Shown: positions 24,713 through 41,239 of the stretch, piece by piece
How positions within the stretch are numbered: position 1 is the stretch's first letter
Layout: every line of letters starts with the position of its first letter
Virus record (IMG/VR): IMGVR_UViG_3300012921_000081
Location: 1,206 to 65,205 of that record
Reading direction: 5' to 3' (one strand)
DNA length: 64,000 nucleotides
Source of the DNA: a virus
Notes under the pieces: model-generated
The model's input: the letters and a program-made list of their open reading frames with translations, nothing else
Database searches by the model: none
What the model was told of the DNA's origin: nothing
Program-made: the position numbers and the translations under genes

Positions 24713-24834
24713 TGCTGTTGCTCCCGATCGTTGTGGGCGTCGATTTGACGGGACGCCGTGCCGTCTGAATGCCCCGTTCCTGCTCGCGCAGGACACGGGA
24801 CGAGGTGGGGGAACTCCGACAACTGCCGAGCCGC

Positions 24835-26211: not shown

Positions 26212-26293
26212 GCTCCTTGGTGTTGTTCCCCGCACCTCGGAGCCAGATCACCCTACACAAGCGCTCCCGGAATCCCCCGGGGCAGCGCGACTT

Positions 26294-27601: not shown

Positions 27602-27611
27602 GGTGGACCTT

Positions 27612-30098
27612 TCATCGCAAGGGTCGGTGGTTGCACCGGCAGTTCACGACTTCGGAAGCGGGAGCCTCGGGGTCGTGCGGGTATCGAAGTTTCCCGCTCA
27701 CGGCTCCCAATCCCGCAGGACGAATGGTGAGAAAATCAAAGCCAGCCTCGACGACACCCTTTTCCCCGTACGTCGCATGGCTCTCGCGGACGTGCTCGCC
27801 GCCGGCCGTGATCCATTCCTTACGCTTCATCCCTTGGGCGGTGAACATGACGTCGCGGCCACCGTTCGCGAATGCACCCGCCTCGGTCCGGGCCACCGAC
27901 AGAGACTTGGCCGAGGACGCGGAGACGTCATACACGTGCGACACGCGCTGCCGAAGTTCGGCACGCGTCTCACCCGCCAGGAATCCCTCCACCAGTGAGG
28001 ACCGCAGATTCTTCTGAATGGTCGTTGACACCTGGCCCACGAACCGGCGCTGATACACGTCGAGCCAGTTCATGAGTGGAGGATCGTCGAACTCGAACAC
28101 CGTCACTCCGGCGAAGTCATTGGCGGCCGTGAACGCGTACACGTTCTCGAGTGACGCGACGTATGTCGGGCGGATCGACCTGGCCAGGCGGTTGGTCATG
28201 TCGTTTGTGGGAACGATGATCTCGTCGGAGTACTTCTCGGCCTCGGCTCGCTTGTCGTCGTCGGACGTTGCGCGGATGACGACGCCAGCCGACGTCATCT
28301 TGAGTCGCCTCGTCGCGGCGTCAAACCGCTGCAACTGCACGTCGCTTTCGCCGCGCACCCATCGCCTCCAGACGGGGACGTAGACCCGCTCCATCGGGAC
28401 GCAGACCTTTTCCTGCAGCTCGCCCCAGTAGCGGTCAGAACGGGCGCGCCGGATCTCGGAAGTGAGTGACGTGGCGAGACGGCGCAGGCCGGCCGACGGA
28501 GTGGGTTTGCTTTGTTTCGGCGGATCAGTTGCATCGGGCGACGGTTGGGACGGATCCGAGCCAGGCTCCGCGGACGGGTCGGTGTTTGCCGCGGCGGGAT
28601 CTTGCGGATCCTCACCCGGATTCGCCGTTGGCTTCGTGCCGGAGACATCGGACCCGCCGTCCAGGATCGACTCACTCGGAACGACCATCGGCGACACCAA
28701 CGCAACGTCGTCGCCGTCGTACGCCGGGACGTCGAGGCCCACCACGTCATATGCCACGCGCGGCGGTGCATGCAGTTCGGTCCCGCACATGCTGCGCGCG
28801 GTGGCGATCTTGTCGGAGACGCCAGCGCGGAGGGCCTGAACCGTGGACGTGTCGAACATGCCGACTATGGAATCCGGTTCCTCGTTGAGCAGCGTCTCGT
28901 CGAAGATGTCCTCCGCGAGGCGGACGATGGGGAAGAGGCACTTGTCCCAGAAGTTGAAGTCCTGGCTGATGGCGCTGGCGTAGGGCAATCCGTCGTTGAT
29001 GCTCAGCACCGACTTTGGGACGCTGAGGGTGGCGAGTACTTCATCGCGGTCCCATTCCCGCATGCGGCCATGTTCCATGTCCTTGGGCGTCATGCCGGTC
29101 TGCTGGTAGTCGAAGAACCCATCAAGCACCAGCATGCGGTTCACGTTCTCTGGGCCCGAGTGCCGCTCGTTGATGTCGGCTTCGAACTTCTGACGTTCCT
29201 TCGTGTCTTTGAACGTGCCACCGGTGCGGCGATCAAAGACGATGCCGCCAGGATTGGCGCCGTTGATGAGCGTCGATCGATTCCAACGCATCGACAGCAT
29301 GTCGAGTTCGATGCCCGCCATGGCGGCCGCGATCGGCGCCAAGCCGCGGAGCGGATCGTCGGGGTTGTAGAACTTCAACTGGACGACTTCGGCGAGCGTG
29401 AGCGACTGAGACACCGCCGAGCCGAGCATTCCGCGCCGCGGGTTGTACCGCCACCCGACCAGCGTGGACCCCGCCACGATTGGTTCCAGGCACTCGGGTG
29501 GCACGGGCCAGATCTGAGAAGGGATCTCCGCCGGACCGAGCCGTGCCCCGCCCTCACCAGTCAGCAGCCAGGCACACTCGCCCTTCGCCACCCAGATAAC
29601 GATGGTGGCATACCAGAGCATCGCCGAACCTTGGATGTACGGGTTCGGGCGCGACATCGCGGCTGTCAGTGGGTGATCCGTGAAGCGCTCAACGCCGGTG
29701 GGATTCACGCCCGACTTCCGGCAAGCGCGGTTCAGGTGCCTTGTGACGGCCGTGCGTTTGTGCCCACGCTGCGGACCAGTCCACTGCCGACCAGACCGAA
29801 GCACCGCCTGCTTGCGGCGCTGCAGCTCGCCGTCGGTTTCCTGGTAGATCCCGAAGGACGCCTGCGAGATGTTCTTGGCGATCGCCGACGCGGCCGCGTA
29901 CACCCAGGCATGAGTCTTGAACGGGTTGAGCGCCCGCGACGTCGGCGGCATGCCGAGGCTTTGGATCGCCTCATAGAACTGCCCAATGGATTTGAACCGA
30001 ACCGTGACAGGCGCAGACGAGCGAGTGGTGTCCACCGATTCACGCCATGGCTGACCGTCCGGACCGAGCAGAACCGGCATCTTGCTTGAGTCGTTCAC
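27612..30098 (-). CDS. Phage portal protein fused to head morphogenesis (Mu gpF/SPP1 gp7-like) domain
   Basis: WVYAAASAIA, RPNPY, GLAPI, NGANPGG (portal); C-terminal ARTEA...KEWITA..HVRESH...RYPHDP...VNCRC. Confidence 0.9.
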   Translation of the reverse strand: MNDSSKMPVLLGPDGQPWRESVDTTRSSAPVTVRFKSIGQFYEAIQSLGMPPTSRALNPFKTHAWVYAAASAIAKNISQASFGIYQETDGELQRRKQAVLRSGRQWTGPQRGHKRTAVTRHLNRACRKSGVNPTGVERFTDHPLTAAMSRPNPYIQGSAMLWYATIVIWVAKGECAWLLTGEGGARLGPAEIPSQIWPVPPECLEPIVAGSTLVGWRYNPRRGMLGSAVSQSLTLAEVVQLKFYNPDDPLRGLAPIAAAMAGIELDMLSMRWNRSTLINGANPGGIVFDRRTGGTFKDTKERQKFEADINERHSGPENVNRMLVLDGFFDYQQTGMTPKDMEHGRMREWDRDEVLATLSVPKSVLSINDGLPYASAISQDFNFWDKCLFPIVRLAEDIFDETLLNEEPDSIVGMFDTSTVQALRAGVSDKIATARSMCGTELHAPPRVAYDVVGLDVPAYDGDDVALVSPMVVPSESILDGGSDVSGTKPTANPGEDPQDPAAANTDPSAEPGSDPSQPSPDATDPPKQSKPTPSAGLRRLATSLTSEIRRARSDRYWGELQEKVCVPMERVYVPVWRRWVRGESDVQLQRFDAATRRLKMTSAGVVIRATSDDDKRAEAEKYSDEIIVPTNDMTNRLARSIRPTYVASLENVYAFTAANDFAGVTVFEFDDPPLMNWLDVYQRRFVGQVSTTIQKNLRSSLVEGFLAGETRAELRQRVSHVYDVSASSAKSLSVARTEAGAFANGGRDVMFTAQGMKRKEWITAGGEHVRESHATYGEKGVVEAGFDFLTIRPAGLGAVSGKLRYPHDPEAPASEVVNCRCNHRPLR

Positions 30099-30784
30099 TT
30101 CTTGGTCTCCTGGCGGAATCGATCTTGAACCGCTCGGAGCAACACTCCGCGTTTATCACCGTGGATCACGCAGGCCTCCGGATACTTCTCCAAGACGTCG
30201 GGCTCGATGGGCGGTCCGTCGCGGTGCCACAGGCAGCGGATGAGCGATGTCGGATAGCCGCGGTGCACCGGGAGTTTGCGGCGGTTGAACAGCTCCAGGT
30301 CCCAGGACTTGTTCGGGTTCACGCGCTCGACCGCGTCAAGGAGCTCAGGCGTCGTGACGTACACCGAGCAGCCGCTGTAATGCTCGACCGGCGCGTCGGG
30401 CGTGAATCCCGGCACCTTCCAGTGCCCGAAGACACACCGCTTGAGGTCGAACGGCTTCCGCGACTGGCACAATTCGTCAAGCTCGTTCAATGCCGACGGC
30501 CGCGTGAGAACGGCGTCAGGCTCCAGCCAAAGCACCGGAGAATTCACGGGCATGTCACGCATGATGAGTTTGAACATGCTCGTGCACGACCTGGGCCATC
30601 CCCCAGACCAAGCCTTGCCCACAGTGATCTCGGGTCCGTCGTCGTCCTTGCATTGAACGACATACCCGTCGTCCTGGCGGTGGTAGCGGAGGATCGAATG
30701 ATCGCCCGCGCACTGGCCCGCGAGGTTCGCCAGCTCGTGCGCCATGGCGAAGTCACCCATCCAGCTGGGAATCACCACGATCAT
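30095..30784 (-). CDS. Putative GT-A-like glycosyltransferase, paralog 1
   Basis: LWLEPD (DxD-like), VFGH, SGCSVY, terminal IHGDK. Family call is an inference. Confidence 0.5.
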   Translation of the reverse strand: MIVVIPSWMGDFAMAHELANLAGQCAGDHSILRYHRQDDGYVVQCKDDDGPEITVGKAWSGGWPRSCTSMFKLIMRDMPVNSPVLWLEPDAVLTRPSALNELDELCQSRKPFDLKRCVFGHWKVPGFTPDAPVEHYSGCSVYVTTPELLDAVERVNPNKSWDLELFNRRKLPVHRGYPTSLIRCLWHRDGPPIEPDVLEKYPEACVIHGDKRGVLLRAVQDRFRQETKK

Positions 30785-31464
30785 GCGTCACCCCATACTG
30801 CGCGAAGCAGCGCGCCAGACTTGTCGCCGTGAATGAGAGCCGCGTTCGGGAAGGCATGCAGCGCCTTGGTAACGTCGTAGCGGAGATCTTCGAGGTACGG
30901 CTCGGACTGCCACCCCCAAATGCAACGGATGAGATTCGTGTCACGGTGAAACGCGCCGCCCTGGTCATCAGCCATCAGCAACTCGCCCAGCTGCTGGTCG
31001 TGCGGTTTGGCGTAGGTGATCTCGCGCAGGGCGGCAAGCAGGGTCGGCGTCGTGCGGTAGACGCACGCGCCGTTCACGAATCGAAATGACAGGACCATGT
31101 CGCGCTTATCGTGACCGAACAGGCAGAGTTCTGGTTGGTCTTGCACGCGGAGGTCAAACAGATCCTCGATCTCGTCGAGAAACGTCGCCCGAGTCGGACA
31201 GCAATCCGGCTCCAGCCAGAGGAACGGGCAACCAACCGGGAGCCAGTCCGCGATACCACAAACCATCTGGCCGCAGGTGTACGGGCCGGCGTTTGGGCGC
31301 ACGCCGAAGTGGAAAGGCTCGACGATGCCGTCAGGGCCGCAGTAGACGCGCACGAGCTTGTGCCGCTGGCGCCGATCGCCCAACTCGCACGCAGTCTTGG
31401 TGACGGAGTAGAGGCGGTCGGCAAGCTGCCGATCCGCGTCGCAGTATGGCATGAGGACAAGCAC
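30781..31464 (-). CDS. Putative GT-A-like glycosyltransferase, paralog 2
   Basis: LWLEPD, LFGH, NGACVY, LIRCIW, IHGDK; alignable with paralog 1 end to end. Confidence 0.5.
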   Translation of the reverse strand: MLVLMPYCDADRQLADRLYSVTKTACELGDRRQRHKLVRVYCGPDGIVEPFHFGVRPNAGPYTCGQMVCGIADWLPVGCPFLWLEPDCCPTRATFLDEIEDLFDLRVQDQPELCLFGHDKRDMVLSFRFVNGACVYRTTPTLLAALREITYAKPHDQQLGELLMADDQGGAFHRDTNLIRCIWGWQSEPYLEDLRYDVTKALHAFPNAALIHGDKSGALLRAVWGDA

Positions 31465-31473
31465 GGGAGGACC

Positions 31474-33123
31474 TCACAGCATGTCGTGGATGTACGCGGC
31501 GATGGTCGCGCGCATGGGAGGGGACTGAGTGCCGAAGCGAGCGGGGATCTTGATCTGCGACGTGCGGATGTCAGGCTTGGCCGTGTTGTTCGGCCGATCC
31601 ACAACCTGCGCCGCGCGAGATGACGCCCAAGATTGGAACTGGCGCCAGACCGCGAGGAAGCGAGTGCTGTCCCAATTGCCATAGCCAGGCAGAGCACCCC
31701 AGATTGCATACTCGTACACACCCTCGTCCCAGCAGGCCTTTAGAACCTCGAGCAAGTACGCGTCGTCGCCAGACTCGAACTTCGTCTCGTCGGTGTACTC
31801 GATCTGCTGAGCACCGATCCACGGGATGATGCGTTTGGACCGATCGCACGAACGGATCCTCGCGCGGGCCTGCTCAAGGTTGAGCTCGGCCGACGCTTCG
31901 TTGCGCGGCAAGTGGCCATTGGCATAGAGCACCGGCATCGAGATGCCACCGAGGATCTCCGGCATGCCGTGGTCGTAGTTCCCGTAGTCGTAGATGGCGC
32001 CGGGTTTGACCTTGACGTGGTCGTAGTCGCCCCACGCGACGGGCATGCCGGCGGCGGCGAACGGATCGGCAAGCGTCTCCTTGATGAGGTGCTGAGTCGC
32101 GTTGATGTAGAGCCGTACCACCTCGCGGCCGAGCACGTCGAGCTGCTCAGTACCAGCCAGGTTGAAGAGCGCGTCAGGCAGGATGTCGTTTGACCAGGCC
32201 CATATTCCGCGCGACACGAGCGAGGCCCGCCATGCTTCCAGCGTCATCGCCGTTCCGGTTGTCGGATCGGTGTAGACGGTTTCGGTGGTGTAGCGCGTCG
32301 TCGTCGAACCGGCCTCGGTCTTCGCGGCTTTCAGGTTCCGAAAGTCGCCGAGACGCCTGAAGCCGGGCAGAGTGACGTCGTAGCGCACCGAGTGAAACGT
32401 GCGGATGTCGTTGTAACACTCCGAGTCCCACATCAAGGCTTCGGGATATTGCAGCTGCACGGTTCCGCCGCCAAGGCCGCTCGGCACGCTGAACGAATCG
32501 CACTGCTGCTTGAGCTTCGCCGCGAACCACTGGCCGAACTTCTTGTTGGCTGTCAGCGCGTTGGCGTTGTACGGGTTGAACCGGCCCATCGGGATGTCGT
32601 CGGCGTCCGTGATCGGGATCCACGTCGGCTGCTTGTAGTCCTGCTGGACCGGGCTGCTGTTGCTGACCCCGTCAGCGGGATGGGCGAACGCCGTGAGCGA
32701 ACTGCCAGACGGCGTGTTGTCGAAGACGCCCCAACCCTGCGTGAAGACCGAACCACCGCGCGAGCCACCCGAGTATGCGCCGACGCCTCGGATGTACCCG
32801 TAGAAGTGCAGACGCTGGGCGTGGTTGACCGCCATGGCTTCTGCGATCGCCTGCAACTCCGCATCTGTTGCGGGGTAGTTGGTCGGCTGCGGTGCCGTTA
32901 CCGAGGGGTATCCGAGCGGCGTGTTCCCCGACCCGTTGGTGTATTTGGAGTTGGTGAAGTGAAAGAAGTTCACCGACGGATCGGTTCGCAGTGGGTCGCT
33001 GGTTCCGAGTGACCCCGCGCTGTCGACGTCGTTCCAGAGGTGGCACACTGGTGTTGACGGCGACGGCGCGAACCGCTGCTGGGCCGGGATCGGCGTCGGC
33101 GTGATGACCTGCGACTGCGTCAC
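31474..33123 (-). CDS. Large hypothetical protein, possibly TIM-barrel glycoside hydrolase-like
   Basis: 549 aa; alternating beta/alpha pattern with MWDSE, MPVLY, IIPWIG, YAIWG. Fold call is an inference. Confidence 0.4.
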   Translation of the reverse strand: MTQSQVITPTPIPAQQRFAPSPSTPVCHLWNDVDSAGSLGTSDPLRTDPSVNFFHFTNSKYTNGSGNTPLGYPSVTAPQPTNYPATDAELQAIAEAMAVNHAQRLHFYGYIRGVGAYSGGSRGGSVFTQGWGVFDNTPSGSSLTAFAHPADGVSNSSPVQQDYKQPTWIPITDADDIPMGRFNPYNANALTANKKFGQWFAAKLKQQCDSFSVPSGLGGGTVQLQYPEALMWDSECYNDIRTFHSVRYDVTLPGFRRLGDFRNLKAAKTEAGSTTTRYTTETVYTDPTTGTAMTLEAWRASLVSRGIWAWSNDILPDALFNLAGTEQLDVLGREVVRLYINATQHLIKETLADPFAAAGMPVAWGDYDHVKVKPGAIYDYGNYDHGMPEILGGISMPVLYANGHLPRNEASAELNLEQARARIRSCDRSKRIIPWIGAQQIEYTDETKFESGDDAYLLEVLKACWDEGVYEYAIWGALPGYGNWDSTRFLAVWRQFQSWASSRAAQVVDRPNNTAKPDIRTSQIKIPARFGTQSPPMRATIAAYIHDML

Positions 33124-33126
33124 GGC

Positions 33127-34302
33127 TTAAGCCCCTTGTGTTGAAACGGCTTCCATCTCGAGCTCATGACGCAACCAGGCCAGCTTCTCGGCGGTCGTGG
33201 GCAATCGGTGACGTGCGGCGCGACCAGATGCTCCCGCAGGCGCGACCACTTCGGACTGCGACTGGTAGAAGACTTCAAGTTCGACGCCGGCGCATCCGCA
33301 CAACGCACCCACGTCGCCGACGACGGTGCCATCGATCTGCAGGCCGAAGCTTGCGTCGGCGATCGCCGCCTTCGTGAGTTCGTATGGTCCGTGGCCCCAC
33401 AGGTCTGAGGATCCGCCCAGCGTCACGACGTTGAGGGCCTTGGTCATTGCTGCCAGGTCCAATGTCGCCGGGATGTCGAGCGATTTGATGTCGGCAGTCG
33501 GGTAGAGGCCGCCGGTGAGGTTCGCGGCACAGACAGACGCGGCGAGATTGACGCCGCCGCCGTAGAAGCGAAATACCACTCCGCGGATGATGGCGTCATC
33601 GGGAAGGCCAAGCGCAAAGCCAGCGAACACTCCGCCGTCCAGGTTGTTGCCGTCAATGTCGGCGACCGCGACGGGATTCAGGAAGCCGCCAAGCACGTTC
33701 ACAGACCCGTCAAAGACAGTGTCCGGATTGAATGGAACGTAGAAGCCGTCCGCGACGTAGCTGGTTGCCGCAGCGACCTTCGAACGGATCGGAAGCGATG
33801 GATAAGCGGCAGGCTCGTCGTAGACCACCTCAACCGTCACGGAGTGAACCCGTGCCTGCTGGCCCGCATTGGTCACGTACGCGGCGAACCGCACACCAAA
33901 CGATGTGCTGTTGATATCTCGCCATGTCCACGTCGTGCCCCAGAGATCTGAGAGAAGGTCACCGAAGATCTTGTCTGTCGATGTGGTCGGGTTGAGGTTG
34001 TTGCCCACGGCCTTGTTGGTGCCGATCGGTGACCCGTTCTTCAGCAGATGGACATCACTGTCGACCGTGCCCGAGGCGCCCGACTGCGAAAGTCCGAGTG
34101 TCACCCGCACTGATCGAACGATTGAGCCGGCGGGAAGGCTGAACCCAAAGTTGGTGAGGTCGAGGAAATCTGTTGCGCCCGATCCACTCGACGCCGTCGC
34201 AGTCGGGAACGTGCCCGGAGTCTGCCAGGAACGAGGGCTGCTCGCGTTGTCGGTGTTCACCCGGCTGGAGGGGTTCGTCTTTGTTGACGTGACGGTTGCC
34301 AT
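33127..34302 (-). CDS. Putative virion decoration/fibre protein with two internal beta-sandwich repeats
   Basis: Repeated FGFSLPAGSIVRSV...SDLWG..W...SFG and FALGLPDDAIIRGV...SDLWG...ASFG. Confidence 0.55.
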   Translation of the reverse strand: MATVTSTKTNPSSRVNTDNASSPRSWQTPGTFPTATASSGSGATDFLDLTNFGFSLPAGSIVRSVRVTLGLSQSGASGTVDSDVHLLKNGSPIGTNKAVGNNLNPTTSTDKIFGDLLSDLWGTTWTWRDINSTSFGVRFAAYVTNAGQQARVHSVTVEVVYDEPAAYPSLPIRSKVAAATSYVADGFYVPFNPDTVFDGSVNVLGGFLNPVAVADIDGNNLDGGVFAGFALGLPDDAIIRGVVFRFYGGGVNLAASVCAANLTGGLYPTADIKSLDIPATLDLAAMTKALNVVTLGGSSDLWGHGPYELTKAAIADASFGLQIDGTVVGDVGALCGCAGVELEVFYQSQSEVVAPAGASGRAARHRLPTTAEKLAWLRHELEMEAVSTQGA

Positions 34303-34304
34303 GA

Positions 34305-34805
34305 TCAGTTGTCCTGGTTGGGCGTGAACCGCTGCTCAAGATCCCGGATGGCATCCGTGAGCTGCGAAATGGCCTTGGTGTGTTCCTGGCGGTCGCGTCG
34401 AAGTTCCTCGCGGAACTCCTCACGCTGCAGACGCGATTCCTCGACAAACTGCGAAAAGACGTTCTTGGTGTGCTCAGCGAACTGCGAGACGATGCGCTCG
34501 GTCTGCTCACGGTGTGCGGTTGCCTGACGCTCGACTTGGTCACGCGCGGCGACTTGTGATCGCTCGAAAGCGTCGCCAATGAGCTTCATCGCGGCCGCGA
34601 TGCGGGGCACGGCCCAGATCACCAGTACGGTGACCAGGAGCAGGAAGGCGAGGAAGGTGCCGACCTCCGAGACGAGCTTGAGCACCTGCGCAGGTGGCAT
34701 CGAGTCAGCCTCGCCAGCCGTCATCAACCACATCGCCAAAGCCATGAGAGTGCTCCCGGACAAACCTGCACCGACGATGCTGACCGTGCCCGCGCGGCGG
34801 CTCAT
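34305..34805 (-). CDS. Holin-like membrane protein
   Basis: Two N-terminal hydrophobic helices followed by a charged coiled-coil; next to the spanin candidate. Confidence 0.5.
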   Translation of the reverse strand: MSRRAGTVSIVGAGLSGSTLMALAMWLMTAGEADSMPPAQVLKLVSEVGTFLAFLLLVTVLVIWAVPRIAAAMKLIGDAFERSQVAARDQVERQATAHREQTERIVSQFAEHTKNVFSQFVEESRLQREEFREELRRDRQEHTKAISQLTDAIRDLEQRFTPNQDN

Positions 34806-34812
34806 GTGGACC

Positions 34813-35070
34813 TCAGGCGACGATTTCGCAGTCCGAGCAAGTCACGGTTGTGTTGTAAAGGCCGGCGTGCTTTGTAACGATTCGGGCGCTGCCTTCTTCG
34901 TCACGTCCGTCGGAGATTTCGACTGCGACATCGATGTCAGCATTGCACGATGCCACGCCTTCTGCGACACGTCGCACAGTGCCGATACGCGTGACGCTGT
35001 CGTCGGGGTTGTGCTTGTGCTTGACGACTGAGCCGACCTTGACCTTGTTTCCGTTGCGATCATGAGGCAT
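34813..35070 (-). CDS. Small hypothetical protein (KOW/SH3-like)
   Basis: DRNGNKVKVGSVVKH motif; AGGAG RBS. Confidence 0.6.
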   Translation of the reverse strand: MPHDRNGNKVKVGSVVKHKHNPDDSVTRIGTVRRVAEGVASCNADIDVAVEISDGRDEEGSARIVTKHAGLYNTTVTCSDCEIVA

Positions 35071-35151
35071 TGCGAAACACTCCTGGCGTTTACCGAAACA
35101 TCTGGCCCCGATTTCGATACGGCGGTGCCGATCCGTGAAACGAAACGCTGA

Positions 35152-36003
35152 TCAGGTGAGACGCTCGTCGGCCACGATGGCGCGGGCCTCGGGCGTGAGC
35201 AGCAGCTGCAGTTCGGGCTTGAGTGCCTTCATTGCACTCGCCACTTCCGGTACCTGCCGCGCGCGGTCGACCAGGTTGACGATCGAACGCGCGGCCTTGT
35301 CCTTGGTCGTGGCGAGTTCCTCAGCGTCGTCTGCCCGGGCTTCCTGGGCCTTGGCGGTGAAGTGCTTGGCGACAGCCAGGACCGAAGCGCCTGCGGCACC
35401 AGTCAGACCGAGGCCGCCAATGAGCAGTGGGAGAAGTCCGCCGCTTCCGTTCTCGCCGAACACGGCACCAGTGATGGTGGACGTCCACGCCTTTTGTTCC
35501 GCGATCGATGCTTGAGCCGCCTGGATGCGTCCCTCGGTGATCTTGGCACGGGCGGCGAGGTCGGCCGTGAACTGGTTCCACCCGGCACTGATCTCAGCCT
35601 GCTTGGCATCGATCGACGCGAGGGCGGTGCGGAGCGAGATCTCGTCGTCATCGGATTCCGCGTCCACCCGCGCCGTGAGCTCGGCGACCTTCTGCCGTGT
35701 CTCCGCGTCGAGCTTGGCCAGTTCGTTGTCGAGCAGACGCTTGCGCTTCTTGGCGGCGGCCGTTGCCTTGTCGCGTGCTTCCTGGGCGGCGCGTTCCTCG
35801 GCCGACAGTTTGGCCTTCGCGGCGGCCTGCTCTTTCGCGAGGTCGGCTGCGGCCTGCCGATCCGCCTCCAGTTGCTCGAGCTTCAGGCCGGTGGACGTGA
35901 CACGCTTCCCGCTGACGGGGGATTCGACGGTGAACCAAGACTCACACCCGGCGGCGATGGCAACCGCGGCCGCGGCGACGACAAGGCAGAACGCGCGCTT
36001 CAT
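35152..36003 (-). CDS. Lipoprotein with coiled coil and C-terminal TM (unimolecular spanin-like)
   Basis: MKRAFCLVVAAAAVAIAAG-C lipobox, about 190 aa heptad region, TM LLPLLIGGLGLTGAAGASVLAVA. Confidence 0.6.
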   Translation of the reverse strand: MKRAFCLVVAAAAVAIAAGCESWFTVESPVSGKRVTSTGLKLEQLEADRQAAADLAKEQAAAKAKLSAEERAAQEARDKATAAAKKRKRLLDNELAKLDAETRQKVAELTARVDAESDDDEISLRTALASIDAKQAEISAGWNQFTADLAARAKITEGRIQAAQASIAEQKAWTSTITGAVFGENGSGGLLPLLIGGLGLTGAAGASVLAVAKHFTAKAQEARADDAEELATTKDKAARSIVNLVDRARQVPEVASAMKALKPELQLLLTPEARAIVADERLT

Positions 36004-36079
36004 GGGCAAAGACTCCGCGTTCCCCGAACCTCGAAGTCATGGTAACGGTCGGCAGATGAATCCCCGTCATTCGCGGCCT

Positions 36080-36892
36080 TCAGGATTTCGCACGCTGCCG
36101 CGCGAGCGCGTCGAGGATCATCTGTGCCAGCAGTTCCGGTTTGCCCGCGATCTGGCCATACCGCACCGACGCCTCCCAGTGCGGCTTGGGCGCGCACCCG
36201 TGCCAGAGTGTCGGCCCGTCGGTGACAAGGCCGATGGTGGGAGTCAGTGTCGCGGCGGTCAGGTGCAGAGGTGCCGAGTCGATCGACACAACGAGCGCCG
36301 CTCGCTCCATCAAACCGCAAAGGTCCTGGATGCGTTCGGCCGCGAACGGCCCTACACCCACGGGATTGATGCGGTCGCCGATCAGGCATGCGGCATCGTG
36401 CATGGTTTTTGAGAGCTCAGGCGCCGGCGATGACGTTCCCTCGGTGAAGAAGAGCACCGTGGGATCTGACGGCGAGACGCCGACCACCGTGCGCTCTGCG
36501 AGTTGTCGCTCCCGCTCCAGATTGCGGCGGTCAAGCACCAGCGGGAAGGATCCCCAGGCGAACTTCTCGTTGTTGTCGACGGCAAGGCGCCACGAGTCCA
36601 GGCAGAATGAGCCGCACTTGCGGTCGGTGTTGTTGTCGCCGTACACCTGAGTGACGTGGACCTGGTCAGCCAAGCCGCTTGCGATCTCGACGGCGGTGCT
36701 GACCTTGGTGAGCGGGACATCAACGGCATGCACGTCGGCGTAAGACACGGCCTCAAAGAGGGACGCGTACTCGCGGCGCGTGACGACGATCGGATTTTCT
36801 CCAAACTCCCGCTGTGTCGCCCAGGCGAGCGGGAGCATGTTCAGGATGTCGCCGAACCGGCCGAGCTGAACGAATGCGTGCTTGCGCTTCAT
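36080..36892 (-). CDS. Glycosyltransferase family 9 (heptosyltransferase-like)
   Basis: QLGRFGDILNMLP and LCGLMERAALVVSIDSAPLHLTAA..TPTIGL. Confidence 0.85.
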   Translation of the reverse strand: MKRKHAFVQLGRFGDILNMLPLAWATQREFGENPIVVTRREYASLFEAVSYADVHAVDVPLTKVSTAVEIASGLADQVHVTQVYGDNNTDRKCGSFCLDSWRLAVDNNEKFAWGSFPLVLDRRNLERERQLAERTVVGVSPSDPTVLFFTEGTSSPAPELSKTMHDAACLIGDRINPVGVGPFAAERIQDLCGLMERAALVVSIDSAPLHLTAATLTPTIGLVTDGPTLWHGCAPKPHWEASVRYGQIAGKPELLAQMILDALARQRAKS

Positions 36893-37623
36893 CGGTTGGC
36901 TCCCATCGTGGCCGGCGTTTCACCGAAGAGGTATGGTGGGTTGACGTTGATGTATTCCCGTAGCCCCTGCGCCTCGGCCCAGGCGTACGCCACGGTTCGG
37001 TTGTGGACTTGGCACGGGTGGGTAAGGATGCTCTCCTCCCAGCGCGGACGATGCCGCTGGTGATACAGCACCGGTGGGAACGCACCTGCGTCAAACCCGG
37101 AGCGGAGCATCAAGACCTTGAGGACGAAGTCCCACCCTTCGAACCCGACGTGCAGGTTGGGGATCAACTCCAGGTTGTGATGCCACCACTCCCGCGTGAA
37201 TGCGAACAGGTCGGCGCCGCAGTAGGTGCCAAACCGGGGGAGATCCGAAAGCCGAAGCGGCGTGAACGCCTGCACGTCCACCCTCGGGGAGAAGTAGCAC
37301 CCGAACTTCTGCACCGCGGCTCTGATCACCGAGCCGGCCTCAATCACCGGAGCGACGTCGACGTTGGCGTAGACGATGATGTCGTCAGGCAATGACCTGC
37401 TGACTTGCTCGGCGCAGTTGAGGACATCTGCGATGAACGGAGGCTTTCCGTCCGGCGTGTTGGCACCCGCGTCCAGGCCCAAGTCCCAAAGGGCGACAGA
37501 GGTATCGTGCTGGGTCAGCCGCATTCGCTGGTTGTCAGCGAACGCGAAGCGCTCAGACTCGTCTTGGTCGCGCGGGGTGTAGCCGGCGATGCAGTAACGG
37601 ATCTCGCGGATCTGGTGGGGCAT
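36889..37623 (-). CDS. Putative GT-A-like nucleotide-sugar transferase
   Basis: IVYANVDV, RVDV, GADLFAFTREWW, GWDF, LYHQRH. Confidence 0.55.
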   Translation of the reverse strand: MPHQIREIRYCIAGYTPRDQDESERFAFADNQRMRLTQHDTSVALWDLGLDAGANTPDGKPPFIADVLNCAEQVSRSLPDDIIVYANVDVAPVIEAGSVIRAAVQKFGCYFSPRVDVQAFTPLRLSDLPRFGTYCGADLFAFTREWWHHNLELIPNLHVGFEGWDFVLKVLMLRSGFDAGAFPPVLYHQRHRPRWEESILTHPCQVHNRTVAYAWAEAQGLREYINVNPPYLFGETPATMGANR

Positions 37624-37804
37624 TGAGGGGCTCCAGGGTTTGCGTGGCGGCGAGCAGACGCGCCGCAGAATCGATGTGTTGTTCGGCCCGCTTGATCAGT
37701 CGATGCGCGGCGTCGAAGTGCCATCGACGCGACGCATCCTCGGCGTCATCCAGCAGCGACTGGGCCCGCTCGAGCAATCGCTCAAGGTCGCTGCCGGCGT
37801 CCAT
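37553..37804 (-). CDS. Small helical hypothetical protein
   Basis: GGAG RBS; helical ORF; overlaps the next gene by 71 nt. Confidence 0.5.
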   Translation of the reverse strand: MDAGSDLERLLERAQSLLDDAEDASRRWHFDAAHRLIKRAEQHIDSAARLLAATQTLEPLNAPPDPRDPLLHRRLHPARPRRV

Positions 37805-37807
37805 GGC

Positions 37808-38557
37808 TCATCTCCGGGTGCAGACCCAGTCCCATTGGCGGTCGTCGTAGCGGTAGTACTCGCGGACCTGATACCCGGGCAGGCGAGAGAGGATGTCCTC
37901 GGCACGCCAGCCGCCCTGATAAGCGAGCATGGGGAGATTCACTTCGACCAGCACCGTCGGGGAGTCACGCTCGATGACTCCGCGAGCTCCGTCCAGGACG
38001 CATGGCTCCATTCCCTCCGCGTCGATCTTGATGAGGCGGATGGGTTCCTTCGCAGGAAGAATGATGTCATCGATTCGGAAGGTCGAAATGTCGCCCTCGC
38101 CCGGCTTGGTCACGGGCATGCAGAATCGGGCGCCCATGTTCCCGCCCTTGCCATCGCTGAGGGTGACGTAACGGCCGTCGCCGGCGGGATGATCGACGAA
38201 ACACCAGTGGCCGTTCTCGACGAAGGATCTGAAGTTGATTCGGAAGCAAGCGGCGGCGTCGGCCTGTGGCTCGAACGCGAGGACGCGAGCGCCGCGTTCC
38301 TGGAAGTGAGCTGCGGTATCACCGATGAACGCACCGACGTCGATGACGCGGTCGCCTGCGTTCAGCGCTTGGACTTCGGGCAGGCTCCCGATGCGGTAAT
38401 TCCAGGCGAGCTTCCCCGCGCGGATGCACTCTGGCGTTGTCGCGATGTCATCGCGGAGCGCGTAGTTTTCGGTGCCGGGGATCCGCACGAATGCGGACGC
38501 GTTCACGTCGGTGTCTTTCTGAGGTTCGATCGCGGTAGAGGGAGGGGCTTGGTTCAT
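37808..38557 (-). CDS. FkbM-family SAM methyltransferase
   Basis: VIDVGAFIGD, VLAFEPQ, LIKIDAEGME..VLDGA. Confidence 0.92.
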   Translation of the reverse strand: MNQAPPSTAIEPQKDTDVNASAFVRIPGTENYALRDDIATTPECIRAGKLAWNYRIGSLPEVQALNAGDRVIDVGAFIGDTAAHFQERGARVLAFEPQADAAACFRINFRSFVENGHWCFVDHPAGDGRYVTLSDGKGGNMGARFCMPVTKPGEGDISTFRIDDIILPAKEPIRLIKIDAEGMEPCVLDGARGVIERDSPTVLVEVNLPMLAYQGGWRAEDILSRLPGYQVREYYRYDDRQWDWVCTRR

Positions 38558-38581
38558 GTCGAACCCTACCCGTTGGTGTCG

Positions 38582-40198
38582 TCACTCCCCGCCGCCGATC
38601 CAACGAGCGGCCCGCATGCGCGGCTGCTTGCGCATCTGCCAGGCGATCGCCCACTTCATGACGCGGTCATCGTGCGACCCAGCGTCGGCCGCGTACTTGC
38701 CAGCGGACTGCCGGTTAAAGGTGAGCATCTCGCGGAGGAGGCCTCGATCGCGGACGGTCATCCCTCGCTCGCCATCAAGCGGAAAGCATGCGTTCGACAG
38801 ATCGTTGATCAGTACCGGACGAGATACCGGATCGGTGACCCATCCGGCGCTGCCTCGTTCGTAGTAGAGCTCGATTCCTTCGCGCACGTATCCGAGGTCC
38901 TGCACCTTCTGCAGAACCGCATGGCCGTGGTTGTTGCGTTCGACGCCGAGCAGAGCATCGTTGTACCGGCGGCACAGACGAACCGCGTGGTCTGCGAGTT
39001 CGCGGGGTGTGAAGCAACCGTGGATATCTGCCACCTGCTCACCCGTCGAATCGTTGATGATGCCAACGCCGTTCGGGTCGGATCCCGCAACGCCTTCCGA
39101 GGTGTCGGCTCCAGCGGAATAGGTCTGACCAGGCTCCGGAGCGGCCCAGATCGTCTCGATTCCGCCGCCGGGGAGTTCGCGCACCGTCGCACCGGGGAAC
39201 GGATCGGGCAGAGCCTCGAGCAACGCGAGCACTCGAGCAACGGGGAAGTAGCTGGACCCCGTGACAAGGAAGCAGGATTCGTCGTCCTCGGGGTGTTCCT
39301 GGGCGAAGAGCGGTCCGAGGTCCGCGACCTTGCGGCGGCGCCATTTGATCTGGCTGGAGCTGAGGCGGTGCATCCGCACCAGGTCCGCCTCTCGCGAACT
39401 GAGCGATGAGAGGATCTGCTCAGCCTCGTCGGGCGCCACAGGGTCAGTATTCGTCGGATCGATAAACCACGGGAGGAAGATCGCGGTGAAGCTGTTGCCG
39501 CCATGCTTTGCCTCGATGTACTTCTCGCGGAAGAGTTCGGATCCGTTGGCCGTCGTCTCCAGGACCAGTTCGCCGTTCTCGGTGGCGTCCATCAATCCGG
39601 TGAGGAGTTCCCGCTGCTTGCCGATCTTCCCGGGCCCGGTGCATGAGTGTGCCACCTCCGACCAGTGGACCTTCTGGTATGTGCCGCCACGGCCGCCGGC
39701 CTTACTTCCGGCGGTCGAAAGCAGGAAGACGCTGTTGAGCGTTGGGTAGAGGAGCGTCTTGGACTTGCCCGTGCCCTCGCGCTCCGGCGCCGTGCCGTCG
39801 CTGCGATACATCAGCTCGACCATCTCGAAGATCTCGCGCGTCTTCGGGTCGGTCTGAGCGAGCGTCATGATCCGTTGATTGCGGCGGGTCACACTCAGCC
39901 AGTAAGAGTGGGCCTGCTCGCAAGTTGTGATGCCGCCCTGGCGATACTTGAGGACCAGATACCAGGGCTTCTTTCCCGCCCCAACCGCCGCGGCCTTCTG
40001 GGCGAGGTAGTGTCGTTGAACCGGGTTGAATGCAAGCTTCACCAATCGCGGAGGCGAACCCTTGGTCTTGATCGTGATGCGCTCGGCAGCGAACCGTTCG
40101 AACGGCGTGCCCATGTCGGCGGCATCGAGCGCCGTGAAGGTCCGCCGCAGTGCTGCGAACATCAGCTGCACGTTCCGCGCTTCCTCGGGAGTGCGCAT
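38582..40198 (-). CDS. terL: Terminase large subunit
   Basis: LVLKYRQGGITT (Walker A-like), HWSEVAH (Walker B), ETTANG, GADTSEG, GVERNNHG, HDDRVM; TGATG coupling with terS. Confidence 0.92.
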   Translation of the reverse strand: MRTPEEARNVQLMFAALRRTFTALDAADMGTPFERFAAERITIKTKGSPPRLVKLAFNPVQRHYLAQKAAAVGAGKKPWYLVLKYRQGGITTCEQAHSYWLSVTRRNQRIMTLAQTDPKTREIFEMVELMYRSDGTAPEREGTGKSKTLLYPTLNSVFLLSTAGSKAGGRGGTYQKVHWSEVAHSCTGPGKIGKQRELLTGLMDATENGELVLETTANGSELFREKYIEAKHGGNSFTAIFLPWFIDPTNTDPVAPDEAEQILSSLSSREADLVRMHRLSSSQIKWRRRKVADLGPLFAQEHPEDDESCFLVTGSSYFPVARVLALLEALPDPFPGATVRELPGGGIETIWAAPEPGQTYSAGADTSEGVAGSDPNGVGIINDSTGEQVADIHGCFTPRELADHAVRLCRRYNDALLGVERNNHGHAVLQKVQDLGYVREGIELYYERGSAGWVTDPVSRPVLINDLSNACFPLDGERGMTVRDRGLLREMLTFNRQSAGKYAADAGSHDDRVMKWAIAWQMRKQPRMRAARWIGGGE

Positions 40199-40761
40199 CA
40201 CGGCTTGACCTCCGGCAACGCACCATGTTCCCGCATCCACCCCGCGAGCCACGCTTCCAGTTCGCGAAGGCACGCTTCTCGTTGGTCTTCAGGCAAGTAC
40301 TTCAGGACGATCGCACCGATCTGGGTACCGAACTCCTGGGCCTCCTGTCCGATCAAGCGCTGCCGTTCTTGCGGCCCGAACTTTGCCTCGATCCCGTAGA
40401 TGCGATCGAGCCGCTCCTGGGCCTTGATGCGGTCGCGCGGGTCGGCCTCGGCGTCACGGATGATTGACTCGTACAGGGCGATGGCCTGGCACCGCTCCTC
40501 ATCCGGGTCACGCGACTCGCGGTTGATGATGACCGCGCGGCCGAGGGTCAGGATCTGCTCGCGCTGCTTGCGGCCGATGGGATGCTTGAGCGCGGCCTCG
40601 ATCTCCGCGATGATCTGATGTTTGTGCTTTCGCCTGGCGAGGCCATCGGCCGCGATCGCGATTGCCTGATCGGTAACGGATGTGACCGGGCGGCCGCGCT
40701 TGGGTTTCACACCATCAGGCGACGGCGTGCCGCTTGCATCGGTGACACCCGGCGTGCTCAC
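40198..40761 (-). CDS. terS: Terminase small subunit (putative)
   Basis: Directly upstream of and coupled to terL; N-terminal HTH plus RIKAQERLDRIYGIE helix. Confidence 0.65.
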   Translation of the reverse strand: MSTPGVTDASGTPSPDGVKPKRGRPVTSVTDQAIAIAADGLARRKHKHQIIAEIEAALKHPIGRKQREQILTLGRAVIINRESRDPDEERCQAIALYESIIRDAEADPRDRIKAQERLDRIYGIEAKFGPQERQRLIGQEAQEFGTQIGAIVLKYLPEDQREACLRELEAWLAGWMREHGALPEVKP

Positions 40762-40861
40762 GGCATGTCCTCGACGTCGGCACGGGAACCCTCACGCGCA
40801 CGCGCGCGTGTCGAAAAGATCGGGCGAGGCATGTTAAGGCCGCTGACTATGCATTCCCCGA

Positions 40862-41149: not shown

Positions 41150-41239
41150 GAACGTGACTCCGCATGATCCTGTGCGCATACCAGGAAATATACCGCATAC
41201 GGATCGGCGGATGAGTCAAGTTTGCTCCAGTGGGCCGGA

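What the first reader, a model, noticed from the sequence alone, without database searches (positions are those of the whole stretch)
30095..38557. Glycosylation/methylation cluster embedded between terminase and portal
Seen: terL is separated from portal by 8.5 kb of co-oriented, largely coupled genes: FkbM methyltransferase, a GT-A-like protein, a GT9 heptosyltransferase-like protein, two further GT-A-like paralogs, a possible hydrolase and a repeat beta-sandwich protein. Established: some mycobacteriophages glycosylate their virions with phage glycosyltransferases; GT9 enzymes use ADP-heptose-type donors; FkbM enzymes often O-methylate sugars. Inference: late-operon timing points to a multi-step, methyl-capped glycan on the virion rather than lysogenic LPS conversion. 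I know of no such system described for a planctomycete phage.
Basis: partly seen in the sequence, partly recalled or inferred. Interest (0 to 1): 0.8.

Follow-up and report, generated by a model that had tools for sequence, protein, structure and literature searches.

The report
Phage sugar-enzyme genes between terminase and portal
A prophage of a Phycisphaerae (planctomycete) bacterium carries four sugar-transferring enzymes and a methyltransferase inside its head-assembly operon. Distant relatives keep them in the same place, so they probably sugar-coat the virus particle, but the target is unproven and half of the 8.5 kb is not demonstrably sugar-related.

Summary
On the minus strand, terL (38582-40273) and a portal-MuF fusion (27612-30098) are separated by 11 tightly packed co-oriented ORFs, plus one doubtful ORF.

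Five are soluble glycan-type enzymes:
- an FkbM methyltransferase (gA);
- a GT-A protein (gB) coupled to a short GT-B protein with GT9 motifs (gC);
- two paralogous GT-A proteins (gI, gJ) coupled to the portal gene.

gI/gJ belong to a Pfam-less, mostly viral family with at least 504 clusters. Its conserved residues are ExD, Asp and His. The gJ model (pLDDT 95.5) matches GT31-type enzymes and the chlorovirus capsid glycosyltransferase. A gI-gJ heterodimer is predicted, and many relatives are tandem fusions.

The pair lies directly upstream of portal in three other metagenomic phages. One of them keeps nearly the whole gene order.

The middle 3.9 kb is a lipoprotein, a small protein, a TM coiled-coil protein, a beta-rich protein and a 549-aa orphan. 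None of it is shown to be glycan-related. "Hydrolase" could not be confirmed.

Virion glycosylation is the best reading (about 0.45), by analogy with mycobacteriophage Corndog. The acceptor is unknown.

This scan has noted similar terminase-portal sugar islands in many other uncultured phages.

The parts
38582..40273 (-). Large terminase (terL). Upstream boundary of the module.
   Evidence: phrog_2 at 8.8e-15 and phrog_24361 at 8e-18. 49-53% identical to terL of L003 and L008.
37808..38557 (-). gA, an FkbM-family SAM-dependent methyltransferase (249 aa, soluble).
   Evidence: PF05050 4.8e-12 and TIGR01444 1e-19, both above the curated cut-offs. phrog_8156 1.2e-15. No TM segment.
37553..37804 (-). 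orf83, a doubtful ORF in the only long gap (184 nt) between gA and gB.
   Evidence: It overlaps the gB start by 71 nt. Its GC3 is 0.67 against 0.78-0.82 for its neighbours. No family hit.
36889..37623 (-). gB, a GT-A-fold glycosyltransferase-like protein (244 aa, soluble).
   Evidence: No Pfam hit. The nearest structures to the Atlas model are GT2 and Glyco_transf_7C enzymes, TM 0.64-0.77. Orthologue in L008 at 38% identity. Fused to a gC homologue in L016.
36080..36892 (-). gC, a short GT-B-type glycosyltransferase-like protein with GT9 motifs (270 aa). Its start overlaps the gB stop (ATGA).
   Evidence: PF01075 scores 26.7 bits (cut-off 22) over residues 188-223 only. RfaQ and heptosyltransferase NCBIfam models score far below their cut-offs. 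A profile of gC plus its L008 orthologue hits EspG2 GT (0.0028) and WaaC (0.012) in the PDB.
35152..36009 (-). gD, a predicted lipoprotein with a coiled coil and a C-terminal TM helix (285 aa).
   Evidence: N-terminal hydrophobic segment ending in AAGC, and a TM segment at 192-214. Lipobox proteins occupy the same position in L003, L004 and L008. No family hit.
34813..35070 (-). gE, a small soluble protein of unknown function (85 aa).
   Evidence: No family hit. GC3 is 0.66, lower than its neighbours.
34305..34805 (-). gF, a membrane protein with N-terminal TM segments and a coiled-coil tail (166 aa).
   Evidence: TM segments at 10-28 and 39-77. Homologues in L008 (E 2e-9) and L004 (E 0.003) at the same relative position.
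33127..34302 (-). gG, a 391-aa protein with a Ser/Thr-rich N-terminus and two weakly similar ~150-aa modules.
   Evidence: Internal repeat E 0.045. Residues 12-161 are 31% identical (E 1e-6) to the N-terminus of a 652-aa 'tail tubular protein A' of an uncultured podovirus. No Pfam, PHROG or PDB hit.
31474..33123 (-). gH, a 549-aa orphan protein. Its first ~95 residues are Ser/Thr/Pro-rich.
   Evidence: No family hit. No homologue in 5.8 billion proteins, GenBank phages or the PDB. There is only a weak language-model lead to GHL10/GH42-type TIM barrels, 0.87-0.92. The single-sequence fold failed, pLDDT 35.
30781..31464 (-). gI, first of two paralogous GT-A glycosyltransferase-like proteins (227 aa, soluble).
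   Evidence: 32% identical to gJ, E 4e-24. It keeps all the family-conserved residues. Orthologues lie next to the gJ orthologue in L003, L004 and L008.
30095..30784 (-). gJ, second GT-A paralogue (229 aa). It overlaps both the gI stop and the portal start by 4 nt.
   Evidence: AF2 model pLDDT 95.5, pTM 0.92. Foldseek PDB: 43 hits at E<=1e-3; those listed are all GT-A enzymes. VIA-align Z 15.0 to CHPF, 14.8 to B3GalT6 and 13.4 to PBCV-1 A64R. Conserved residues are D11, E88-P89-D90, D162 and H208.
27612..30098 (-). Portal fused to a MuF-like head-morphogenesis domain (828 aa). Downstream boundary. A 57-residue Pro/Ser/Thr/Asp-rich linker lies at residues 481-537.
   Evidence: PF04860 1.5e-44. 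phrog_2662 2.6e-67 and phrog_2468 1.8e-23. Linker composition.

Best explanation
The stretch between terL and portal is an old, conserved part of this phage lineage's late head operon. It holds five cytoplasmic glycan-tailoring enzymes in two blocks.

Block 1 follows terL directly. It has an FkbM methyltransferase (gA), a GT-A transferase (gB), and a short GT-B transferase with GT9 motifs (gC). gB and gC are translationally coupled and probably act as one unit, because they are one polypeptide in another phage.

Block 2 precedes portal directly. It has two paralogous GT-A transferases (gI, gJ) of a phage-typical family that has no Pfam model. They carry an ExD...D...H catalytic signature and probably work as a heterodimer.

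Inferred mechanism: the phage encodes no sugar-activation genes, so the enzymes use host nucleotide sugars. While heads are being assembled, they build a short, partly methylated oligosaccharide on one or more phage structural proteins in the cytoplasm. This is what the O-methyltransferase and glycosyltransferase cassette in the head operon of mycobacteriophage Corndog does.

Shown here: gene order, coupling, folds, motifs, conservation, fusions and the predicted heterodimer.
Inferred: catalytic activity, donor sugars, late timing, and above all the acceptor.

The five genes in between (gD-gH) are not demonstrably part of this pathway.
For: Enzyme identities:
- FkbM scores above the curated cut-offs.
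- The gJ model has pLDDT 95.5. Its best structural matches are GT-A enzymes that extend protein- or glycan-linked sugars: CHPF Z 15.0, B3GalT6 14.8, B3GalT5 14.2, C1GalT1 14.0, and the chlorovirus capsid glycosyltransferase A64R 13.4.
- gB's nearest structures are GT2/GT7C.
- gC carries GT9 motifs.
- Family-wide conserved residues are D11, E88-P-D90, D162 and H208. The ExD sits just after strand 83-86, where GT-A enzymes carry DxD.

Functional linkage:
- Of 91 long family members, 5 are fused to FkbM, 2 to GT2, 1 to GT9 and 3 to Stealth.
- A gC-gB fusion in L016 lies beside a GT2 and a methyltransferase.
- About 47 of the 150 listed family members have two tandem copies.
- The predicted gI-gJ complex scores 0.77 against a best control of 0.00. 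That mark was reached by 58 of 80 solved complexes and 2 of 110 mismatched pairs; these counts hold only roughly because my own alignments were used. The runs agree in at least 88% of contacts and the partner's pLDDT is at least 86.

Head-module context:
- The gI-gJ pair lies directly upstream of portal in L003, L004 and L006/L008, with proteins 30-50% identical to the window's.
- L008 keeps the order terL ... gB-gC ... gF ... gI-gJ-portal.
- In a second lineage the family sits just downstream of terL.
- ATGA overlaps, no internal promoter or terminator, and (gE and orf83 apart) the same GC3 as the head genes.
- All five enzymes lack TM segments.
- The nearest Atlas clusters are 91-100% viral.

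Precedent: Corndog has an O-methyltransferase and three glycosyltransferases between portal and protease (PMC4351075). [quoted passage not shown]
Against: - No acceptor is identified. The capsid protein and the likely tail-tube protein have no Ser/Thr-rich or shared C-terminal tag, whereas the mycobacteriophage glycans sit at the C-termini of those proteins (PMC12619734).
- None of gA, gB, gC or gJ matches any mycobacteriophage gene by tblastn against 50,697 phage records. The analogy is positional and functional only.
- Membrane proteins (gD, gF) inside the module have no role in a purely cytoplasmic scheme.
- GT9 enzymes classically act on LPS cores.
- Late timing is inferred from gene layout alone.
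- The gB assignment rests on the Atlas's own model. gC has no structural model.
Confidence: 0.45

Rival explanations
1. Host-envelope glycan remodelling. The enzymes act at the cytoplasmic face of the inner membrane on a lipid-linked or LPS-core-type acceptor. This changes the cell surface, either in the lysogen or during the lytic cycle, for superinfection exclusion or to stop progeny re-adsorbing to debris.
For: - gC has GT9 motifs, and its weak PDB matches include the LPS heptosyltransferase WaaC.
- A lipoprotein (gD) and a TM protein (gF) lie within the module, with equivalents in relatives.
- The element is an integrated prophage at a tmRNA gene.
- Temperate phages are known to alter host serotypes with glycosyltransferases (reviewed in PMC12619734).
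Against: - The cluster lies about 28 kb or more from the att/integrase end.
- It has no promoter-like site of its own and is translationally coupled to portal.
- No flippase or polytopic membrane transferase is present. All five enzymes are soluble.
- The gI/gJ and gB families are found almost only in viral records.
- The position inside the head module is conserved over deep divergence.
Confidence: 0.2
2. Composite region. Only the two flanking blocks (gA-gC and gI-gJ) are glycan enzymes. The middle block gD-gH is a separate envelope or lysis cassette, or an accessory virion-protein cassette, that merely shares the slot. In this reading gD and gF would be spanin-like, gH possibly a wall-degrading enzyme, and gG a virion-associated beta-rich protein. 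This is compatible with the best explanation and rivals only the reading of one 8.5-kb pathway.
For: - gD has a lipobox plus a C-terminal TM helix. gF has an N-terminal TM segment plus a coiled coil. These are spanin-like architectures.
- A lipoprotein and a TM coiled-coil protein recur at this position in L003, L004 and L008.
- No endolysin, holin or spanin was recognised among the other late genes scanned.
- The genes after gF are hypervariable between relatives: gG+gH here, 289+790 aa in L008, 865 aa with a weak ConA-like hit in L004, and none in L003.
- The gG N-terminal module occurs on a podovirus tail protein.
Against: - No lysis-protein family matches any of gD-gH.
- gD is much larger than typical o- or u-spanins (my recollection, not tested).
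- gH has no detectable homologue or fold.
- A lysis cassette between terL and portal would be unusual.
Confidence: 0.35
3. DNA glycosylation. The transferases hypermodify phage DNA bases around the time of packaging, to evade restriction.
For: - Phage glycosyltransferases that modify DNA are well known (Pyle 2024, as cited in PMC12619734).
- The genes lie next to the packaging enzyme.
- The phage also encodes a ParB-fused N6/N4 DNA methyltransferase at 43949-45562.
Against: - The provirus has no thymidylate-synthase-type hydroxymethylase to create an acceptor base. PF00303 is absent from the complete record.
- The listed structural matches of gJ act on protein- or glycan-linked acceptors or are uncharacterised; no DNA glycosyltransferase is among them.
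- FkbM enzymes are associated with sugar and natural-product methylation.
Confidence: 0.04

Closest known systems
Virion glycosylation cassette of mycobacteriophages (Corndog gp35-38; Che8; Myrna)
   Same: An O-methyltransferase plus several soluble glycosyltransferases sit inside the head-gene operon. In Corndog they lie between portal and protease (PMC4351075). They are reported to glycosylate the capsid and tail-tube subunits (Freeman 2023, as cited in PMC11600133, PMC12363180 and PMC12619734).
   Different: - No sequence relation was found: tblastn of gA, gB, gC and gJ against 50,697 phage records gave no mycobacteriophage hit.
- The slot here is terL-portal, not portal-protease.
- The host is a diderm planctomycete.
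- The module here also holds membrane proteins and large variable proteins.
- No C-terminal acceptor tag is visible.
- Nothing has been shown experimentally.
PBCV-1 A64R, the chlorovirus glycosyltransferase of major-capsid glycosylation (PDB 2p72/2p73)
   Same: A small, soluble, virus-encoded GT-A domain of about 200 aa. It is among the best structural matches to gJ: Z 13.4, rmsd 3.1 over 179 residues, and Foldseek E 1e-4.
   Different: Only 11% identity. It comes from a eukaryotic giant virus and is the N-terminal domain of a multi-domain enzyme. It is not the top match and shares no family signature with gJ.
GT31-type inverting beta-1,3-glycosyltransferases (B3GalT5/6, B3GNT2, C1GalT1) and the CHSY3-CHPF heterodimer
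   Same: These are the best structural matches to gJ, Z 12.5-15.0 over 195-206 residues. They have a GT-A fold with an acidic x-D metal motif. CHSY3-CHPF is a heterodimer of paralogous GT-A proteins, as predicted for gI-gJ.
   Different: 10-14% identity. No Pfam GT31 (Galactosyl_T) hit. They are eukaryotic Golgi enzymes with membrane anchors. The motif here is E-P-D.
GT9 LPS heptosyltransferases (WaaC, WaaF, RfaQ)
   Same: gC shares the C-terminal D-[ST]-x-x-x-H-L-x-A-A motif and an N-terminal G-D-x-x-x-x-x-P motif.
   Different: - Only 36 residues match the Pfam model.
- All NCBIfam heptosyltransferase models score far below their cut-offs.
- gC is 270 aa against about 320-350 aa.
- The donor sugar cannot be inferred.
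- From memory: GT9-like autotransporter heptosyltransferases (TibC/Aah) glycosylate proteins, so a protein acceptor would not be unprecedented.
Serotype-converting glycosylation modules of temperate phages (gtrABC type)
   Same: Prophage-encoded sugar-transferring genes.
   Different: As I recall them (not tested here), those modules sit next to int/att, are expressed in lysogens, and consist of a flippase, a bactoprenol transferase and a polytopic membrane transferase. Here the enzymes are soluble, sit in the late head operon far from att, and no flippase is present.

Membership tests
GT-A fold glycosyltransferases (gI, gJ) | Single Rossmann-like alpha/beta/alpha domain matching solved GT-A enzymes | tested here: met
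   The gJ model has pLDDT 95.5. Foldseek gave 43 PDB hits at E<=1e-3; those listed are GT-A enzymes. VIA-align Z reaches 15.0 over 206 of 229 residues. gI is 32% identical to gJ.
GT-A fold glycosyltransferases (gI, gJ) | DxD-type acidic metal or nucleotide-sugar motif after the central strand, plus a catalytic acid and a distal His | tested here: inconclusive
   E88-P89-D90 directly follows strand 83-86. D162 and H208 are at least 90% conserved across 64 family members. The variant is ExD rather than DxD. No coordinates were available to check the geometry, and no activity has been tested.
Any curated GT family (Pfam/NCBIfam) for gI, gJ and gB | Score above the family's curated cut-off | tested here: not met
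   No Pfam, NCBIfam or PHROG hit even at E up to 10. 9 of 91 long relatives touch DUF6492.
GT2/GT7C-like GT-A (gB) | GT-A fold resembling family 2/7 enzymes | tested here: inconclusive
   Structural neighbours of the Atlas's own model are GT2 and Glyco_transf_7C clusters, TM 0.64-0.69, plus unnamed viral clusters at 0.77. I made no model of my own. A profile search of the PDB found nothing.
GT9 heptosyltransferase family (gC) | Pfam PF01075 above the gathering score | tested here: met
   26.7 bits against a cut-off of 22, but only residues 188-223 align. The L008 orthologue scores 13.8 bits and the L016 fusion 18.5 bits at the same motif.
GT9 heptosyltransferase family (gC) | Full-length two-domain GT-B architecture and equivalog-level similarity to WaaC, WaaF or RfaQ | tested here: not met
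   NCBIfam RfaQ scores 21.6 bits against a cut-off of 467. Heptosyltransferase III scores 19.5 against 170, and heptosyltransferase I 14.6 against 185. The profile-versus-PDB match to WaaC has E 0.012 and covers the motif only. No structural model was made.
FkbM methyltransferase family (gA) | PF05050 and TIGR01444 above curated cut-offs | tested here: met
   PF05050 scores 46.8 bits (cut-off 22.7). TIGR01444 scores 71.4 bits (cut-off 37.7).
Mycobacteriophage-type virion glycosylation system | Methyltransferase plus glycosyltransferases encoded within the virion head operon | tested here: met
   gA-gC and gI-gJ lie between terL and portal and are coupled to portal. Corndog layout in PMC4351075.
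Mycobacteriophage-type virion glycosylation system | Homology to the Che8, Corndog or Myrna enzymes | tested here: not met
   tblastn of gJ, gB and gC against 50,697 phage records found no match. gA matched only Caulobacter jumbo phages and one faecal phage.
Mycobacteriophage-type virion glycosylation system | Glycans attached to capsid or tail-tube subunits | not testable with these tools
   This needs glycoproteomics of virions. The capsid and candidate tail-tube proteins show no Ser/Thr-rich C-terminal tag.
Lysogenic-conversion (gtr-type) glycosylation module | Membrane-embedded transferase and flippase, located at the att/int end of the prophage | tested here: not met
   The five enzymes have no TM segments. 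The tmRNA att site and integrase lie at 2233-4080, about 26 kb from the nearest cluster gene.
Spanin pair or unimolecular spanin (gD, gF) | Outer-membrane lipoprotein signal and/or an inner-membrane TM helix with a periplasmic coiled coil, located in a lysis cassette | tested here: inconclusive
   The architectures fit. No spanin, holin or endolysin family matches them, and no endolysin is recognised nearby.

The most novel reading that the evidence does not exclude
The gI/gJ 'WLEPD...IHGDK' proteins are founding members of a large, essentially phage-specific GT-A family that no curated family covers. The family works as a heterodimer or tandem pseudo-dimer and is dedicated to glycosylating virion proteins at the head-assembly step. 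If so, virion glycosylation is a widespread trait of uncultivated phages, including phages of Planctomycetota, rather than a peculiarity of actinobacteriophages. Methyltransferase, GT2 and GT9-like partners would be recruited modularly.
Probability: 0.35. Interest if true: 0.65.

Novelty: new member of a known kind. Interest (0 to 1): 0.45.

Why it matters
Glycan-coated virions have been demonstrated only for a few mycobacteriophages, where the coat blunts antibody recognition.

This case puts a methyltransferase and four transferases in the head operon of a phage of a very different host. The set is conserved and unrelated in sequence to the mycobacteriophage enzymes.

It also defines a testable enzyme pair, gI-gJ. 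The pair has a high-confidence fold for gJ, a clear catalytic signature, hundreds of viral relatives and no curated family.

If the target is the virion, phage self-glycosylation would be a general strategy with independent enzymatic origins. That matters for phage-host recognition, particle stability and phage engineering.

If the target is the host envelope, it would be an unusual case of surface remodelling driven from a late structural operon.

Tried and rejected
gH (the 'possible hydrolase'):
- Two word-based homologue searches, full length and residues 95-549, found only the protein itself.
- tblastn against phage records found nothing, and phmmer against the PDB found nothing.
- Pfam gave only a 13.8-bit sub-threshold touch of a GH123 N-domain.
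- The Atlas feature search gave weak GHL10/GH42 leads.
- Single-sequence AlphaFold2 failed (pLDDT 35, pTM 0.27), so no fold search was run.

gG: the PDB sequence search found nothing meaningful.

gB: the profile search of the PDB found nothing.

Searching viral contigs for relatives:
- gJ alone found none.
- The 64-sequence alignment was too divergent to make search patterns.

The 756-809-aa protein of the second lineage:
- It sits in the portal's position but was not recognised as a portal by PHROG at 1e-5, PF04860, PF16510 or PF12236, or by tblastn against phages.
- I therefore call it only a portal candidate.
- FkbM is absent from those five records.

Domain order in tandem relatives: I tested whether they keep a gI-then-gJ order. 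The result was inconclusive.

Remote links among the variable proteins (gG, gH, L004 865 aa, L008 289/790/304 aa, L003 176 aa): none was significant.

Acceptor tags: the C-termini of the capsid and tail proteins show none.

Expression:
- No RNA holder is listed.
- The four wastewater runs labelled RNA-Seq are probably DNA. Their short contigs cover the whole 20 kb evenly, so they say nothing about timing.

Sugar-activation genes (PF00483, PF01370) and a hydroxymethylase (PF00303) are absent from the provirus.

The Freeman 2023 paper itself is not held. It is cited only through papers that summarise it.

Full report
**What is there**

The window is a complete IMG/VR provirus of 66.4 kb. It is integrated at a tmRNA gene at 2233-2579. 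The flanking host gene at 900-1823 is up to 61% identical to genes of Phycisphaeraceae and Phycisphaerales MAGs, so "planctomycete phage" is justified.

All late genes run on the minus strand. The boundaries of the finding are secure:
- terL, 38582-40273: phrog_2 and phrog_24361.
- An 828-aa portal fused to a MuF-like domain, 27612-30098: PF04860 at 1.5e-44, phrog_2662, phrog_2468.
- Downstream of portal come a protease/scaffold and an HK97-type capsid gene.

Between terL and portal lie eleven ORFs plus one doubtful 83-codon ORF. Gaps run from -4 to +81 nt, apart from one 184-nt gap between gA and gB. ATGA overlaps occur at gB/gC, gI/gJ and gJ/portal. GC and GC3 of most cluster genes match those of terL, portal and the capsid gene; gE and the doubtful orf83 have a lower GC3, about 0.66. 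No sigma-70-like promoter was found and terminator-like hairpins are not in excess. That scan may not fit planctomycete promoters.

**The enzymes**

gA is a clear FkbM-family methyltransferase (PF05050 4.8e-12, TIGR01444 1e-19).

gB has no family hit. The ESM Atlas holds it, and its structural neighbours are GT2 and Glyco_transf_7C GT-A enzymes. One neighbour cluster consists of FkbM-domain proteins.

gC matches the GT9 Pfam model just above its gathering score, but only over 36 residues.
- Its alignment with an orthologue shows both GT9-style motifs: N-terminal GD...LP and C-terminal D-S-x-x-L-H-L-x-A.
- A two-sequence profile weakly hits a GT-B enzyme (EspG2) at the N-terminus and heptosyltransferase I at the C-terminal motif.
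- NCBIfam heptosyltransferase models score far below their cut-offs.
- gC is therefore a short GT-B-type protein with GT9 motifs, not a demonstrated heptosyltransferase. No donor can be inferred.

gI and gJ are paralogues (32% identity, E 4e-24).
- A profile search of 1.84 billion representatives found 504 clusters at E<=1e-3.
- Conserved residues, in gJ numbering, are D11, E88-P89-D90, G120, G138, Y142, D162 and H208. All eight closest members keep them, both paralogues included.
- With this alignment AlphaFold2 gave a model of gJ at pLDDT 95.5.
- Foldseek against the PDB returned 43 hits at E<=1e-3; those listed are all GT-A glycosyltransferases.
- VIA-align gave Z 15.0 (CHPF of the chondroitin polymerase heterodimer), 14.8 (B3GalT6), 14.2 (B3GalT5), 14.0 (C1GalT1) and 13.4 (A64R, the chlorovirus capsid glycosyltransferase).
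- Viral structure neighbours are likewise nucleotide-diphospho-sugar transferases.
- The ExD follows strand 83-86, which is the canonical DxD position.

None of the five enzymes has a TM segment. The provirus encodes no NTP-transferase or epimerase-type sugar-activation genes, so host nucleotide sugars would be used.

**Evidence that the enzymes belong together**

- Of 91 long family members scanned, 5 carry an FkbM domain, 2 GT2, 1 GT9 and 3 Stealth CR2. These are the same partner set as in this window.
- In the IMG/VR contig L016, one 494-aa ORF matches both gC (3e-38) and gB (1e-18). It lies next to a GT2 gene and a methyltransferase gene. gB and gC are therefore probably one functional unit.
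- About 47 of the 150 best family representatives contain two tandem copies.
- The gI-gJ pair was predicted to bind. The score was 0.77 against a best control of 0.00. That mark was reached by 58 of 80 solved complexes and 2 of 110 mismatched pairs, counts that hold only roughly because my own alignments were used. The runs agree in at least 88% of contacts and the partner's pLDDT is at least 86.
- Caveats: heterodimers of paralogous GT-A enzymes have been solved, so the pass may partly reflect likeness. The test also cannot tell a heterodimer from a homodimer.

**Conservation of the layout**

Four relatives of gJ (39-47% identity) were found. Every larger contig shows the same picture.
- L003: terL - 3 genes - gI - gJ - portal - protease - capsid.
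- L004: ... 865-aa protein - gI - gJ - portal.
- L006/L008: terL (49% identity) - 111 aa - 304 aa - gB (38%) - gC (30%) - lipoprotein - 112 aa - gF homologue - 54 aa - 289 aa - 790 aa - gI - gJ - portal.

The gI and gJ orthologues group separately, so the duplication predates these phages. The module is therefore ancestral to the lineage and not a recent insertion.

A second, unrelated lineage (L011-L021) places a family member just downstream of terL. It lies upstream of a conserved 756-809-aa protein that occupies the portal's position. I could not identify that protein as a portal.

The nearest Atlas clusters of gJ and gB are 91-100% viral.

**The middle block**

gD is a predicted lipoprotein with a coiled coil and a C-terminal TM helix. 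gF has N-terminal TM segments and a coiled-coil tail. A lipobox protein and a TM coiled-coil protein recur at this place in L003, L004 and L008, and gF has detectable homologues. These architectures resemble spanins. No lysis gene was recognised elsewhere among the late genes I scanned, but no lysis family matches gD or gF either.

The genes after gF are hypervariable between relatives.

gG has a weak internal repeat. Its N-terminal module is shared with the N-terminus of a podovirus "tail tubular protein A", which hints at a virion-exposed domain.

gH is an orphan. "Hydrolase" rests only on a weak language-model lead, and its fold prediction failed.

About 3.9 kb of the 8.5 kb is therefore not demonstrably glycan-related.

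**Interpretation**

The best-supported reading is that soluble transferases and a methyltransferase, co-expressed with the head genes, decorate phage structural proteins.

The closest precedent is the Cluster O mycobacteriophages. There an O-methyltransferase, two glycosyltransferases and a GlcNAc-transferase lie between portal and protease (PMC4351075). [quoted passage not shown]

The analogy is positional only.
- No homology to mycobacteriophage genes was found.
- The capsid and candidate tail-tube proteins here have no Ser/Thr-rich C-terminal tags.
- Ser/Thr/Pro-rich segments do exist in the portal-MuF linker and at the N-termini of gG and gH. That is a speculation, not evidence.

Rivals:
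- Host-envelope glycan remodelling. For it: GT9 motifs, membrane proteins and a prophage. Against it: late-operon coupling, no flippase, viral-only families.
- A composite region with an unrelated envelope or lysis cassette in the middle. This is compatible with the main reading.
- DNA glycosylation. This is unlikely: there is no hydroxymethylase, and gJ's structural neighbours are not DNA transferases.

**Novelty**

The kind of system is known from mycobacteriophages: a methyltransferase plus glycosyltransferases in a phage head operon. This scan has already flagged many comparable terminase-portal sugar islands in other uncultured phages (unverified notes). This case is therefore a new member.

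Its distinctive points are the planctomycete host, the conserved and apparently heterodimeric GT-A pair of a family with no curated model, and the GT-A/GT9-like pair that is fused elsewhere.

Expression data could not be obtained.

Noticed in passing
window 2233-4080: A tmRNA gene lies at 2233-2579 on the plus strand (Rfam, 154 bits). It overlaps the 3' end of the integrase ORF at 2428-4080 on the minus strand. ARAGORN did not call the tmRNA.
   Followed up: partly
window 28488-28658 (portal residues 481-537): A 57-residue Pro/Ser/Thr/Asp-rich linker joins the portal domain to the MuF-like domain. The fusion is shared by relatives: the portals of L003, L004 and L006 are 787-800 aa.
   Followed up: partly
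L016:15778-17262 (IMGVR_UViG_3300003319_000207): A single 494-aa ORF combines a gC-like and a gB-like domain. It lies next to a GT2 gene (14466-15236) and a Methyltransf_24 gene (15152-15805).
   Followed up: partly
L011-L021 (IMG/VR contigs): A second phage lineage has a conserved ~225-270-aa protein (L016_227-like) directly upstream of its WLEPD-family transferase. It also has a conserved 756-809-aa protein in the portal's position that no portal model recognises.
   Followed up: partly
window 20233-20922: A 229-aa late protein just upstream of the tape-measure gene ends in a ~40-residue Ser/Thr/Pro/Glu-rich tail. Its function was not examined.
   Followed up: no
window 14085-15992: A phrog_17239 protein (14085-14891, plus strand) and an HNH endonuclease (14943-15992, minus strand) lie inside the tail-gene region.
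   Followed up: no
window 24000-43900: Short contigs 90-99% identical to this phage (mostly 95% or more) cover 27-29 of 30 bins in four wastewater runs of one study. A close relative therefore occurs outside the biocrust sample that is the likely source. The gG and gH regions are covered too, so these ORFs are not assembly artefacts.
   Followed up: partly
window 43949-45562: A ParB-N-domain fused to an N6/N4 DNA methyltransferase (phrog_498 at 1.6e-114). A homologue lies at the syntenic position upstream of terL in L008.
   Followed up: no
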